The position numbers are program-made. Below, piece by piece: positions 6,001 through 9,000 of a DNA stretch of 45,892 nt. The DNA is taken from the IMG/VR virus record IMGVR_UViG_648276653_000019; one strand, given 5' to 3'. This DNA is from a virus (taxonomy: Duplodnaviria > Heunggongvirae > Uroviricota > Caudoviricetes). The stretch's first letter is position 1. Each line of letters begins with the position of its first letter.

Positions 6001-9000
6001 ATTTACCTTTCAGAAATCCATCCATCTCAATTAGTGACATTTGTTTCATTTTTTCCCACTCCGCCACATCGCATTCAGATATTTGTTTTGATTTACTGAC
6101 GGAAAAGAATTTCTCTTAAGCAATTCCTCTCTCGATGGCATTGGCTTTACGCGTTGGCGAATAATCATTTCTGCCGGAAGAATGCCGGGATTGTATGCAA
6201 GTCCTCTCATGGTAAATTCCTCAGTCATTACTGATAGCGCCATAGCGTGAGCGGTAATTACGCAGGCGCGGGTCGATATATTCAGGGAAGTGGGTATATG
6301 TGGCTTTGCGGAATGGTCGGATTGATGTCTGGTAAATTCGCTCGCGTTCTTCTTTCTCTGCAAGCCATATACAGTGGCGAAATTCCTTTTCCTCTTTCGT
6401 TTCCTGCGGTAGAGACATTATCCGGTTGTAGTTTTTCCTGAATTTATCCAGCACCTCCGATACGGAATTGCCGGAACAGCGGCGCGGGTCATCCGCACCA
6501 TACAGAGGCGCTGGCATAATGGAATCCTTATGTTGCTAATTTAGAAGGGAATTGAATCGTCGTATTCAGGATGATTTTGATGATTGCTACTTTGTTGCTG
6601 TTGGTTGTTTCCTGAAGTTGCAAATCCAATCTTTGCATTCAGTAATTCAAGAGTGATTGATTGACCATTTTGCCCCTGATAAACATCAACCCTGATGTTT
6701 TCTCCGGTAATTTCTACAATGCCACCTTCAACCAGAACGCTACGGTAGTAATCCGCTTGCGCTCCCGGCTTGGCAAATACAACGGCGCTGTAGTTTGTCC
6801 ATTCTTTCTTTTTTGTCTGGCGATCGTAATACTGAACGCCAGCACGGATGTTGAATCCGATATTTTCCCCGGCCTGAAACTCTCTTGCGGGCTTGTTTAG
6901 TCTTACAGTAATCGAATGTGCCATTAAGCAGCAGCTCCTTCTAATTCGTCTCGTCTGATGTTGTAAACGTCCTGCGCTTTTTGCTGCTCAGGTGTGCCTT
7001 CGAGCATCTTCCACGCTTTGGCGAACGCCTGTTTAAGCTCTTCTACGGTGTTTTTCTGCATTGCTGCGTCAGTGAATGCTTTTAGAACCTGTTCAGGTGT
7101 AGGTGATGGTTTTGATTGCTTTGCTGCTGCGTTCTGCTGATGTTTATGCTCGTCTGTATCTGCATCTTTCGCATCATCAATGCCGAACAAACCATTGAGG
7201 CAATACTTGCGTGCATAAGAGCTTGTAGCTCCAGTAACTTGTGCAGAATCCATTCCTTTCTTGCTTTCTTCCTCTCGTGCAAGAGCGGTTGCCGTATGGC
7301 TGTTTTCGCCATCGGTAATAGTTGCCGTGGCTTTCACGTAATACCGATCACCAATCAACACAACTTCATCGCTGATTGATAAAAACAGACCATTCAGTAA
7401 CGGCTTAACGCCTTCAAGAATATCTTCGCAGCTTCTGTATTTATATTTACCGAATGAGTTGTACTGATTCTTTGGCGCGTTCAGATTCTCCTGAATAGCT
7501 GCCAGTCTTGCGTAAAATTCTTTGCTCATATGATTGTTCTCAGAATGGACACGGCCCAAGGAAATAACGCTGATTTAATACTTCGACTCGGGACAAGTTA
7601 AGGCATACCCGCATTCCTTCGCGGTCGCCATTATGTCGATACCAGAGAGCTTTCTGCGTGTACATGCGCCTCTGTAACTTGCTCTCCTTCACTGTGGTTG
7701 CAAGTGACATGAATATCTCCTTCGTTACCGATTAATTCTTTCATCTGACGAATGAATTCTTCGTCTGACCAGTTATCTGTAAAACTCATTTCCTGCGATA
7801 CCATGGAAGGTTGATAGCTGATTTCATTGCTTTATTTGCTTCAAGCCACATTTTTGAATCACCAATAAATCTGGCTATTACTGCTTTGTTCTGTGCAGCA
7901 CGAAGCATCTGGTGATTGATGGCTATTTCATTGCGCATAATAAGACCTCAACTCTTTTCCATCCGTCACGTAATTTACGGGTGATTCGTTCAAGTAAAGA
8001 TTCATTTAGTTGGAAGGCACCCATGCGAGCGCCTCCCGCGATTGCGTAAATCATGGGTGGTTCCTTATGTTGGTTTTATTAGTAGGTTATTTTTGTTGCG
8101 AATACTTCGCCTTTTACGATGGCTGTTATGATATTTTTAGCAACATCTTCTGGTGCGCCAACCTTGATAAGGTCAGCAAGTATTTTGTTATTTACTTCTT
8201 TCCGGTGAGCTTTATCCTTTGCTCTACGCTCTTCTTCTTCCTTGATTCTTTTTTCTTCTGCTATTCTGGCTTGCTCTTTTGCTTCAGCCTCGCGCCGGAT
8301 TCGTTCAGCCTCCTCCTGTGCTTTTCGGTGTTCTGCTTCAATTGCCGCCTGCTTTTCTCTTTCAGCTCGTTCTGCTGCCTCTTTTGCTTCGCGCTGTGCT
8401 CGTTGCTCGGCTTCAATGCGTTCACGCTCTGCACGTTCCGCTGCGGCCTTAGCTTCTGCTTCTCGCCTTGCTGCTGCTTGAATTTCGGCTTTTGCCTTTG
8501 CTTCGGCTTCTGCTCTGGCTTTCTCTTCAGCTTCTCTTTTTAAGCGTTCTTCATGCTCTCGCTTTTCCTGCTCCGCTTTGAGTCTTGCCTCTTCTCTTTG
8601 GCGGTCAAATTCGCGATCCATCAAAATAGCTATTTCATGGTCAGACTCAATTTGCTTTGCGAGAGCTTCAGCTGCTGCCTTAGCTTCTTCTTCGGCTTTA
8701 ATCCGCGCCTGTTCTTCCTCATAATCAGTAAGAGGCTGGCGCGCCTTGGCTTTCAGTTCATCAAGGCGATCGCGCACTGTCTTGCGGTTGGCATCAATTA
8801 GCTTTGGAATTTCCTTCAGTTCAGCAACAAGGTCTTTGCCAAGACCATCGAGATATGTTTTCGTCTGCGCAACTTTATACGCCAGAGAAGCGATCTCCTT
8901 TCTGCCCTTTGCTGTTGTGATATCAGGCACAAAGGACATAACTTCACGTTCAACCTTTTGAAGGATTTCTTCAATCTGGTCGGCAGACTGAAATACAGTC

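What the first reader, a model, noticed from the sequence alone, without database searches (positions are those of the whole stretch)
7540..8054. Densely overlapping small genes between erf and cIII (kil, an arf-position ORF, and a nested out-of-frame ORF)
Hand translation finds cIII (43 aa), a Kil homologue (50 aa) whose start lies inside the cIII 3' end, and a 52-aa acidic ORF coupled to kil by ATGA. In addition, a 56-aa ORF (7540..7710) with a strong AAGGAG RBS overlaps the 52-aa ORF by ~80 nt in another frame and ends 10 nt before erf. All are below the 60-aa ORF-track cutoff. Either the two overlapping small ORFs are both expressed or one is a decoy.
Basis: partly seen in the sequence, partly recalled or inferred. 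Interest (0 to 1): 0.4.

Follow-up and report, generated by a model that had tools for sequence, protein, structure and literature searches.

The report
Overlapping small prophage genes before erf
Four tiny genes (cIII, kil and two out-of-frame overlapping ORFs) sit in front of the erf recombinase gene of a lambdoid prophage; both overlapping ORFs look like real genes that related phages already annotate, but in the shared 80 bases only the 56-residue one is under protein-level selection.

Summary
A and B overlap by 80 nt, with B in frame A+1.

The arrangement is already annotated: Sf6 genes 30/29, HK022 42.1/42, and two CDS in CUS-3.

Counts over 113 unique homologous segments separate the frames:
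- A codons 1-26 are under purifying selection in frame A (omega about 0.25).
- The A tail inside B is unconstrained (omega about 3.8).
- B is constrained throughout (omega 0.16 in the overlap, 0.11 downstream).

So neither ORF is a decoy, but the dual coding is one-sided.

B is a helical hairpin ending in an invariant Pro-Phe. It belongs to the uncharacterised HK620 HkaM family. It always lies 1-16 nt upstream of a recombinase gene, from any of three superfamilies (ERF, Rad52-like, Sak4-like).

A shares only a short motif with the N-terminus of P22 Arf and fails the Pfam Arf model.

The single fused ORF in the HK97 record is private to that record. Functions of A and B remain unknown. The finding is ordinary, apart from a modest lead on B.

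The parts
7923..8054 (-). cIII, 43 aa (inhibitor of the host FtsH protease; lysogeny factor)
   Evidence: Pfam PF02061 Lambda_CIII, E 4e-15. phrog_550, E 1.6e-20. The same ORF is annotated cIII in CUS-3, Sf6 and RefSeq E. coli genomes.
7786..7938 (-). kil, 50 aa (host cell-division inhibitor). Its start overlaps the 3' end of cIII by 16 nt.
   Evidence: Pfam PF06301 Lambda_Kil, E 1.7e-20. phrog_2055, E 1.2e-35. Annotated kil.
7631..7789 (-). ORF-A, 52 aa, acidic. Equivalent to Sf6 gene 30, HK022 42.1 and the N-terminal part of HK97 gp42.1. Its ATG overlaps the kil stop (ATGA).
   Evidence: phrog_2123, E 1.4e-40. Annotated in CUS-3, Sf6 and HK022. There is no usable Shine-Dalgarno sequence: AGGA lies 1 nt from the ATG, so translation is probably coupled to kil (read from the sequence; inference).
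7712..7789 (-). The constrained part of ORF-A: codons 1-26, MSFTDNWSDEEFIRQMKELIGNEGDI
   Evidence: Variability peaks at A codon position 3: 19/26 columns variable against 8/26 and 8/26 (chi-square p 0.002). Spanning-tree count gives 45 synonymous and 61 nonsynonymous changes, omega 0.25, p 6e-11. The first 16 residues recur in 35-aa variants placed before RecE/RecT modules.
7631..7710 (-). The 80-nt out-of-frame overlap: A codons 27-52 plus the A stop, read over B codons 1-27
   Evidence: Frame A: 9 synonymous and 116 nonsynonymous changes, omega about 3.8. Frame B: 77 and 48, omega 0.16, p 5e-24. The A stop position varies between lineages (52, 54 or 56 codons).
7717..7723 (-). GAAGGAG Shine-Dalgarno sequence of ORF-B, embedded in A codons 22-24
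   Evidence: Invariant in all 104 unique homologous segments, 6 nt before an invariant ATG.
7540..7710 (-). ORF-B, 56 aa. Equivalent to Sf6 gene 29 and HK022 42, and a member of the HK620 HkaM family. Predicted helical hairpin with an invariant C-terminal Pro-Phe.
   Evidence: phrog_1723, E 9.4e-36. Full-length homologues at 48-82% identity in other phages. hhalign to HkaM: probability 92.7%, E 4.3e-7. AlphaFold pLDDT 91.7 with helices 7-27 and 30-51. Omega 0.11-0.16.
6924..7529 (-). erf (ERF-family single-strand annealing protein, 201 aa). Its start is 10 nt after the B stop.
   Evidence: Pfam PF04404 ERF, E 2e-44. The ATG at 7529 is the start annotated in CUS-3 and RefSeq.

Best explanation
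This is the cIII-kil-(A)-(B)-erf stretch of the early-left (pL) operon of a mosaic lambdoid/P22-like prophage. It is 98-99% identical to CUS-3, Sf101 and many E. coli prophages. It encodes four small proteins packed by translational coupling.

SHOWN
- cIII and kil are canonical.
- ORF-B is a bona fide, strongly constrained 56-aa protein with its own invariant GAAGGAG-N6-ATG start.
- ORF-A is a weaker but real coding unit. Its selected part is only the first ~26 residues.
- The remaining 26 codons of A are an unconstrained run-on into the -1 frame of B. It ends wherever that frame first offers a stop: 52, 54 or 56 codons in different lineages.
- A and B are separable modules. B occurs without A (HK620, Erwinia phage 59 and several IMG/VR contigs). 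The A N-terminus occurs without B (35-aa variants before RecE/RecT modules). The overlap arises wherever the two are juxtaposed.

INFERRED
- A is translated by termination-reinitiation from kil (or from cIII in relatives that lack kil).
- B initiates independently. Its stop lies 1-16 nt before the recombinase start, which probably couples translation of the recombinase to B.
- B (HkaM family) is an accessory or regulatory protein of the phage recombination module. It is not specific to one recombinase fold, and it may act through its invariant C-terminal Pro-Phe tip.
- A is an Arf-like accessory peptide: a conserved N-terminal [WF]SDEEFI motif followed by a variable acidic tail.
For: Geometry.

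Prior annotation of both ORFs.

Frame-specific selection: codon-position entropy switches from A position 3 to B position 3 exactly at the B start.
- Nei-Gojobori dN/dS is 0.33 for A codons 1-26 and 1.6-7 for the A tail.
- It is 0.14-0.31 for B codons 1-26 and 0.01-0.16 for the rest of B.
- The spanning-tree count over 113 unique segments and 391 changes agrees.
- A sample anchored on kil, and therefore unbiased towards either frame, gives 7 B-synonymous/A-nonsynonymous polymorphisms in the overlap against 0 of the reverse kind.
- B-synonymous changes per synonymous site are similar in the overlap (4.9) and downstream (5.6), so there is no sign of a second constraint.

B is an independent family: 56-62-aa members down to about 34% identity keep the N-terminal LAxTxxES pattern and the terminal PF.

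B stands alone in Erwinia phage 59 and in HK620.

B is always followed after 1-16 nt by a recombinase gene of one of three Pfam families: ERF, Rad52_Rad22 or AAA_24/Sak4-like.

The A N-terminus follows kil or cIII through ATGA in three different contexts.

A is similar to Arf only over a short motif. One nr source names an A homologue 'accessory recombination function protein'.
Against: No expression data for either ORF were available.

ORF-A is only weakly conserved: 13/26 identical residues between the E. coli and Enterobacter/Klebsiella types. A single consensus pair gives Fisher p 0.09.

Natural variants truncate or erode A: a stop at codon 8 or 37, or loss of the N-terminus.

Part of the conservation of A codons 20-26 could come from the embedded Shine-Dalgarno sequence of B rather than from the A protein.

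A recombination role for B is guilt by association only. In HK620, Sak4 plus SSB gave full oligonucleotide recombineering without hkaM (PMC5928155).

Most loci were found by searching with B, which biases within-type counts towards B. The between-type comparisons and the kil-anchored sample mitigate this.
Confidence: 0.75

Rival explanations
1. ORF-A is a decoy. Only B (with cIII and kil) is a gene, and the conserved sequence upstream of B is there for other reasons, such as the ribosome-binding region of B, a mosaic boundary sequence or an RNA element.
For: RefSeq/PGAP annotates nothing between kil and erf in E. coli genomes. The A tail is unconstrained. A is truncated or eroded in a few natural variants. 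A has no Pfam family. The single-pair test is not significant.
Against: The excess of synonymous changes is specific to frame A over codons 1-26 (45 S, 61 N, p 6e-11), while the other two frames look neutral there. The ATG is always placed as ATGA on the stop of whichever gene is upstream, kil or cIII. The same 16-residue N-terminus heads a different, B-less ORF in RecE/RecT modules. The local RNA fold is not significant (z -1.27).
Confidence: 0.12
2. Both frames are functionally constrained in the overlap. This would be true dual coding, with the A tail selected for composition (acidic, disordered) rather than for sequence.
For: The A tail has net charge -4, against a simulated mean of +0.6 when B is resampled synonymously with local codon usage (P 0.013). 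Other lineages show a similar trend. The 35-aa A variants and P22 Arf also carry acidic tails. The two B wobble positions where a T would create an early A stop almost never carry T.
Against: The charge signal weakens to P 0.05-0.5 under uniform codon usage. Omega of frame A in the overlap is about 3.8, like off-frame controls. The B-synonymous rate is not depressed in the overlap (4.9 against 5.6 per site). The stop position drifts between 52, 54 and 56 codons, up to 71. The frame stays open in a lineage that has lost the A N-terminus.
Confidence: 0.08
3. The functional product is an A-B fusion of about 82 aa. It would be made by +1/-2 ribosomal frameshifting in the overlap, as suggested by the single ORF gp42.1 in the HK97 record and by fused alleles in databases.
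For: HK97 gp42.1 is an 83-aa in-frame A-B fusion. Several 82-aa fusion proteins exist in public data. One of them is carried by at least 24 NCBI E. coli assemblies within an otherwise intact module.
Against: The HK97 form needs two extra bases. It was found only in the HK97 record: none of 999 homologous places in complete E. coli genomes carries it, and the single IMG/VR contig that does is HK97 itself. The database fusions have junctions at many different positions, as expected of independent 1-nt deletions and not of one shift site. B has its own invariant Shine-Dalgarno sequence and ATG. The N-terminus of B is conserved as protein in distant homologues that have no A. No slippery or stop-adjacent shift motif is apparent on reading 7631..7710 (inspection only).
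Confidence: 0.04

Closest known systems
Shigella phage Sf6 genes 32, 31, 30 and 29; coliphage CUS-3 ECRS218_0050-0053; HK022 genes 44, 43, 42.1 and 42
   Same: The same four ORFs occur in the same order with the same overlaps. Sf6 gene 29 is 100% identical to ORF-B and gene 30 is 98% identical to ORF-A. The DNA is 98.6% identical over 83% (Sf6) to 100% (CUS-3) of the 801-nt query.
   Different: Nothing essential differs. In Sf6 the downstream recombinase is Rad52-like, not ERF. In HK022 ORF-A is 56 aa and not 52 aa.
HK97 gp42.1/gp42 (AF069529)
   Same: The DNA is 98.2% identical from kil to erf, and the N- and C-terminal protein halves are the same.
   Different: The HK97 record has two extra bases (TGTCACACGCGAGAAAG against TGTACACGCAGAAAG), which fuse A and B into one 83-aa ORF. 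That form is unique to the record. It is either a private allele or an old sequencing error.
HK620 HkaM (NP_112046), the 'arf-position' gene upstream of sak4
   Same: It is a distant homologue of ORF-B (hhalign probability 92.7%, E 4.3e-7, 33% identity over 52 columns). It is a similar size (62 aa) and ends in PF. It lies 8 nt before the recombinase gene and directly after kil. Its function is unknown, and it is described as an orphan (PMC5928155).
   Different: HK620 has no ORF-A, so there is no long overlap there. Its recombinase is Sak4 (a RecA-like ATPase), not Erf. HkaM was dispensable for Sak4+SSB oligonucleotide recombineering (PMC5928155).
P22 Arf (accessory recombination function, 47 aa, Pfam PF17585)
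   Same: It is a small acidic peptide encoded between kil and erf. ORF-A shares the motif [WF]SDEEFI at the same distance from the N-terminus. ORF-B shares Arf's position abutting the recombinase gene.
   Different: ORF-A gives no match to Pfam Phage_Arf at E up to 1. It gives only E 0.037 to phrog_2445. In profile-profile comparison it reaches P 0.0034 over 15 columns. ORF-B shows no similarity to Arf. P22 has one gene where this window has two.
Out-of-frame overlapping genes in phages where one frame is younger or unconstrained (overprinting; for example lambda Rz/Rz1 as a constrained case)
   Same: Two ORFs are read in different frames from the same DNA within a compact phage operon.
   Different: Here the overlap covers only the unconstrained tail of one gene, whereas Rz1 is functional and fully embedded. 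This comparison rests on general knowledge and was not tested here.

Membership tests
Lambda cIII (Pfam PF02061) | Sequence match to the family HMM above the gathering score | tested here: met
   56 bits against a cutoff of 25.7, E 4e-15, residues 2-36.
Lambda cIII (Pfam PF02061) | Inhibition of the FtsH protease and stabilisation of CII | not testable with these tools
   Needs biochemistry or genetics.
Lambda Kil (Pfam PF06301) | Sequence match to the family HMM above the gathering score | tested here: met
   72.6 bits against a cutoff of 27.6, E 1.7e-20. phrog_2055, E 1.2e-35.
Lambda Kil (Pfam PF06301) | Blocks FtsZ ring formation and causes filamentation | not testable with these tools
   Needs expression and microscopy.
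P22 Arf (Pfam PF17585 Phage_Arf), for ORF-A | Sequence match to the family HMM | tested here: not met
   No Pfam hit at E up to 1, although all P22 Arf relatives carry PF17585.
P22 Arf (Pfam PF17585 Phage_Arf), for ORF-A | Remote homology by profile comparison | tested here: inconclusive
   phrog_2445, E 0.037 over residues 5-26. hhalign P 0.0034, probability 9.5%, 15 columns.
P22 Arf (Pfam PF17585 Phage_Arf), for ORF-A | Small acidic ORF between kil and the recombinase gene | tested here: met
P22 Arf (Pfam PF17585 Phage_Arf), for ORF-A | Stimulates Erf-dependent recombination | not testable with these tools
   Needs genetic assays (Poteete et al. 1991, as cited in PMC12315714).
HkaM / phrog_1723 family, for ORF-B | Sequence match to the family profile | tested here: met
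   phrog_1723, E 9.4e-36, full length. hhalign of the B profile against HK620 HkaM: probability 92.7%, E 4.3e-7.
HkaM / phrog_1723 family, for ORF-B | 56-62 aa with invariant S10, A21, E43, F50 and a terminal Pro-Phe | tested here: met
   Alignment of 18 members.
HkaM / phrog_1723 family, for ORF-B | Lies immediately upstream of the single-strand annealing or recombinase gene | tested here: met
   The gap is 1-16 nt in the 329 of 331 B loci where the downstream flank allowed a call. The recombinases are ERF, Rad52-like or AAA_24 types.
Programmed ribosomal frameshift (A-B fusion) | A conserved shift site, and no independent start for the downstream frame | tested here: not met
   B has an invariant Shine-Dalgarno sequence and ATG. 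The B N-terminus is conserved in homologues that lack A. Fusion alleles have scattered junctions. The search for a slippery motif was by inspection only.
SSB C-terminal tip mimic (speculative, for ORF-B) | C-terminal ...Pro-Phe-COOH | tested here: met
   Invariant in all family members seen. B and the SSB-like ORF at 6541..6924 (DDSIPF) are the only ORFs of at least 40 aa in the window that end in PF.
SSB C-terminal tip mimic (speculative, for ORF-B) | An acidic run before the tip, as in DDDIPF | tested here: not met
   B ends in FLGPCPF and relatives in FLGEPPF or SELPF. There is at most one acidic residue.
SSB C-terminal tip mimic (speculative, for ORF-B) | Binds the SSB-tail pocket of a recombinase or of a host protein | not testable with these tools
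   Needs binding assays or prediction of a complex.

The most novel reading that the evidence does not exclude
ORF-B (HkaM family) would be a general accessory or regulator of phage recombination modules, independent of the recombinase fold. It always sits just before ERF, Rad52-like or Sak4-like genes, which in five of the six modules inspected are followed by an SSB-like gene ending in PF. Its invariant C-terminal Pro-Phe would dock in the pocket that normally receives the SSB C-terminal tip. It could then gate or time the recombinase-SSB interaction, or compete with host partners of SSB. ORF-A would be the Arf counterpart, so that P22's single arf corresponds to a two-gene A+B unit here.
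Probability: 0.12. Interest if true: 0.6.

Novelty: already known. Interest (0 to 1): 0.25.

Why it matters
The practical points are modest.

1. A real, strongly conserved 56-aa gene and a weaker 52-aa gene are left unannotated between kil and erf in the RefSeq E. coli genome annotations inspected. In RefSeq phage records both are labelled 'recombinase', and one record labels B 'cIII protein'. Neither label is supported by the evidence here.

2. The case shows that a long out-of-frame overlap can consist of one constrained frame plus an unconstrained run-on tail. Overlap length alone is therefore not evidence of dual coding.

3. The HkaM family is an uncharacterised small protein tied to phage recombinase genes of three different folds. 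If it modulates annealing proteins or their contact with SSB, it would matter for recombineering tool design and for understanding Arf-type accessory functions, which have had no mechanism since 1991.

Tried and rejected
- **Fold search of the confident B model.** Searches against the PDB and BFVD gave nothing at E <= 0.001. A two-helix hairpin is too generic to be informative.
- **RNA structure around the B start.** Not significant, z -1.27.
- **B against P22 Arf.** Profile comparison found no similarity. An idea that Arf is a compact A-N-terminus plus B-C-terminus fusion was dropped for that reason.
- **NCBIfam.** No family for any of the four peptides.
- **One-genome-per-species scan.** It returned only 8 loci. 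The exhaustive HMM search found only 21 cluster representatives. The B family is small and essentially enterobacterial.
- **Openness of frame A inside B as evidence of selection.** Rejected, because it occurs by chance 28-39% of the time.
- **Acidic bias of the A tail.** It depends on the codon-usage model, so it is reported as inconclusive.
- **Literature searches.** Searches for HK97 gp42 and for the B motif found nothing relevant.
- **A mis-aimed fetch.** The first HK620 fetch retrieved structural genes and was repeated at the right coordinates.
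Full report
**Observation**

Reading the minus strand of 7300..8400 and listing ORFs of at least 20 aa confirms every element of the finding.

- cIII lies at 8054..7923 (43 aa).
- kil lies at 7938..7786 (50 aa) and starts 16 nt inside cIII.
- ORF-A lies at 7789..7631. It is 52 aa when counted from the ATG that forms ATGA with the kil stop.
- ORF-B lies at 7710..7540 (56 aa). GAAGGAG sits six bases before its ATG, and its stop is 10 nt before the erf ATG at 7529.
- A and B share 80 nt, with B in frame A+1.

cIII and kil pass their Pfam gathering scores (PF02061 at 56 bits, PF06301 at 72.6 bits). 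The neighbours are:
- erf (PF04404);
- a 127-aa SSB-like ORF ending in DDSIPF;
- abc2 (PF11043), downstream;
- a 322-aa coiled-coil ORF, upstream.

**What the region is**

The 801-nt region is 98-99% identical to phages CUS-3, phiv205-1 and Sf101. The same identity holds for prophages in hundreds of complete E. coli genomes. It is the cIII-kil-erf part of the early-left operon of a mosaic lambdoid/P22-like prophage.

Both overlapping ORFs are already annotated in CUS-3 (ECRS218_0052 and 0053), Sf6 (genes 30 and 29) and HK022 (42.1 and 42). RefSeq's PGAP annotation of E. coli chromosomes leaves the interval between kil and erf empty.

HK97 is the odd one out. Its record has two extra bases that merge A and B into one 83-aa ORF, gp42.1. 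That version exists only in the HK97 record:
- the best match among 999 homologous places in complete E. coli genomes is 97.8%, which corresponds to the two gaps;
- the only IMG/VR contig with the exact string is HK97 itself.

**Which frame is selected**

I collected homologous loci in two ways. The first used ORF-B variants as queries against IMG/VR and the species-representative genomes. The second used kil as an anchor, which favours neither frame.

B is 56 codons in all but one of the unique segments that carry both ORFs, and the A-only segment has a fixed length. The 250-nt A-start to B-stop segments therefore align without gaps.

Among 104 unique segments, column variability peaks as follows:

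| Segment | Most variable codon position | Variable columns at that position | At the other two positions | Chi-square p |
|---|---|---|---|---|
| A-only | A position 3 | 19/26 | 8/26 and 8/26 | 0.002 |
| Overlap | B position 3 | 23/26 | 15/27 and 10/27 | 0.0006 |
| B-only | B position 3 | 25/29 | 14/29 and 5/29 | 1e-6 |

Nei-Gojobori comparisons between the three sequence types give these dN/dS values:
- A codons 1-26: 0.33;
- A tail: 1.6-7, like off-frame controls;
- B codons 1-26: 0.14-0.31;
- rest of B: 0.01-0.16.

A minimum-spanning-tree count over 113 unique segments and 391 changes gives the following:

| Segment and frame | Synonymous | Nonsynonymous | Omega | p |
|---|---|---|---|---|
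| A-only, frame A | 45 | 61 | 0.25 | 6e-11 |
| Overlap, frame A | 9 | 116 | 3.8 | not significant |
| Overlap, frame B | 77 | 48 | 0.16 | 5e-24 |
| B-only, frame B | 118 | 42 | 0.11 | 3e-41 |

Within the overlap, 77 changes are B-synonymous and A-nonsynonymous. Nine are the reverse, and 39 are nonsynonymous in both frames.

B-synonymous changes per synonymous site are similar inside the overlap (4.9) and outside it (5.6). I therefore see no second constraint there.

The kil-anchored sample agrees, with 7 against 0.

A single consensus pair is underpowered for A (Fisher p 0.09). The case for A thus rests on the pooled counts and on the context evidence below.

**Is the long A frame meaningful?**

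It is not meaningful by itself. Resampling B with synonymous codons leaves frame A open to at least 52 codons in 28-39% of trials. Only two B wobble positions could create an earlier stop.

The A stop falls at 52, 54 or 56 codons in the three lineages, and at 71 in one contig. The frame stays open even in a lineage that has lost the A N-terminus.

The A tail is more acidic than simulated: -4 against +0.6, P 0.013 with local codon usage. The signal fades with uniform codon usage (P 0.05-0.5), so I treat it as inconclusive.

**A and B are separable modules**

After an identical kil, 79 IMG/VR loci continue in the following ways:
- 36 as A(52)+B;
- 16 as A(56)+B;
- 22 as a 35-aa A variant with no B, MSFTDNWSDEEFIRQM followed by an acidic tail, in front of a RecE/RecT module;
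- 1 is HK97;
- the remaining 4 are mutants.

The mutants include an A stop at codon 8 and an in-frame four-codon duplication in B.

In relatives that lack kil, A is coupled through ATGA to a cIII-like gene instead.

B in turn occurs without A in several settings:
- HK620;
- Erwinia phage 59, where it is ATGA-coupled to an unrelated 49-aa gene;
- several other contigs, with 66-84-nt spacers upstream.

The Enterobacter/Klebsiella type keeps kil, A and B with an 86-nt overlap. There the A N-terminus is 50% identical to the E. coli type, the A tail 35%, and B 69-80%.

**What B is**

B has a small family: 21 cluster representatives at E <= 0.001 among 1.84 billion. Members are 56-62 aa. They share LAxTxxES near the N-terminus and [YF]FLGxxPF at the very C-terminus, with S10, A21, E43, F50, P55 and F56 invariant.

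AlphaFold predicts a confident helical hairpin, pLDDT 91.7. Fold searches are uninformative.

HK620 HkaM belongs to the family (hhalign probability 92.7%, E 4.3e-7). HkaM was first annotated 'arf' by position and was later described as an orphan of unknown function. It was not needed for Sak4+SSB oligonucleotide recombineering (PMC5928155).

In the 329 of 331 B loci where the downstream flank allowed a call, the next gene starts 1-16 nt after the B stop and is a recombinase. That recombinase belongs to one of three different Pfam families:
- ERF, in two divergent forms;
- Rad52_Rad22, the Sf6 gp28 type;
- AAA_24, Sak4-like, in two forms.

In five of six modules where I could read further, the gene after the recombinase ends in an SSB-type tip (DDSIPF, DSDIPF or DDAPF). 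B and that SSB-like gene are the only two ORFs of at least 40 aa in the whole window that end in PF.

In HK620 the C-terminal tail of SSB (NDYPPF) is needed for stimulation of Sak4 (PMC5928155). This suggests, but does not show, that the Pro-Phe tip of B addresses the same kind of pocket. B lacks the acidic run of true SSB tails.

**What A is**

A matches phrog_2123. Only a short similarity links it to P22 Arf: phrog_2445 at E 0.037, and hhalign P 0.0034 over WSDEEFIRQMKELIG against FSDEEFIALISPEIE.

It gives no hit to Pfam Phage_Arf (PF17585), which all true Arf relatives carry. One nr source names an A homologue 'accessory recombination function protein'.

Arf aids Erf-dependent recombination but is not essential for it, and its mechanism is unknown (PMC12315714).

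I conclude that A resembles Arf in position, size, charge and one motif. It cannot be filed as a member.

**Fusion or frameshift reading**

Public protein sets contain several 81-82-aa A-B fusions whose junctions lie at different places in the overlap. This is the pattern expected of independent 1-nt deletions.

One such allele is real and circulating. It occurs in at least 24 NCBI E. coli assemblies, in an otherwise intact module.

The following points argue against programmed frameshifting as the normal route:
- B has its own invariant Shine-Dalgarno sequence and ATG;
- the B N-terminus is conserved in homologues that have no A;
- I saw no shift motif in the overlap.

**Verdict**

The finding is real but ordinary. 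It is a known, already annotated arrangement in Sf6-, CUS-3- and HK022-type phages.

B is the constrained frame. A is a short N-terminal peptide with an unconstrained tail that runs into B.

The functions of A and B are unknown. The best-supported inference is an accessory role in the recombination module, and it rests on gene association only.

Noticed in passing
L002 (HK97 AF069529) 1777-1790, corresponding to window ~7664-7652: The HK97 GenBank/RefSeq record has two extra bases that fuse ORF-A and ORF-B into gp42.1 (83 aa). This form is absent from 999 homologous places in complete E. coli genomes and from all other phage records. It is probably a sequencing error from 2000 or a private allele.
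   Followed up: yes
window 7540..7789, and RefSeq genomes such as L004: PGAP/RefSeq annotates no gene in the 256-nt interval between kil and erf in E. coli chromosomes. RefSeq phage records label both small ORFs (and HK620 hkaM) 'recombinase', and one record labels ORF-B 'cIII protein'. Nothing found here supports these names.
   Followed up: partly
window 6541..6924 (-): The 127-aa ORF just after erf has no Pfam hit but ends in DDSIPF, an SSB-type C-terminal tip. It corresponds to HK97 gp40, called 'SSB-1b' in PMC12315714. HK022's annotation calls it a 'likely analog of P22 Abc1'.
   Followed up: partly
window 8079..9047 (-): A 322-aa Glu/Ala/Lys/Arg-rich coiled-coil ORF (the Sf6 gene 33 type) has no Pfam hit. 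RefSeq variously names it 'cell envelope biogenesis protein TolA' or 'coiled-coil domain-containing protein', which is probably a low-complexity artefact.
   Followed up: no
L365-L368 (NCBI E. coli assemblies); protein P0021: A 1-nt deletion allele fuses A residues 1-43 to B residues 19-56, giving 82 aa. It is carried by at least 24 E. coli assemblies in an otherwise intact cIII-kil-erf-abc2 module, so loss of stand-alone B (or a fusion) is tolerated in at least one prophage lineage.
   Followed up: partly
L022/L292, L147, L329, L334 (IMG/VR contigs): Natural variants were seen: an ORF-A stop at codon 8 or at codon 37 with B intact; an in-frame four-codon duplication inside B (YRHNGE-YRHNGD); and one indel that disrupts B.
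   Followed up: no
L089 (SEN22), L090 (HK140), and 22 of the kil-anchored loci L280-L359: The first 16 residues of ORF-A (MSFTDNWSDEEFIRQM) head a 35-aa acidic ORF. That ORF overlaps a 103-aa gene of unknown function upstream of a RecE/RecT module. A mosaic junction therefore lies inside ORF-A.
   Followed up: partly
L093 (JAFADF010000066.1, 'MAG: Actinomycetes bacterium', 3.9-kb contig): A contig binned as an Actinomycetes MAG carries an ORF-B 100% identical to the E. coli prophage version. This is most likely contamination or mis-binning.
   Followed up: no
window 7529 vs 7559 (-): The mechanical ORF list starts erf at a TTG at 7559, giving 211 aa and overlapping the 3' end of B. The start annotated in relatives is the ATG at 7529 (201 aa), which has only a weak GAGAA ribosome-binding site 9 nt upstream. 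This is consistent with translational coupling to ORF-B.
   Followed up: no
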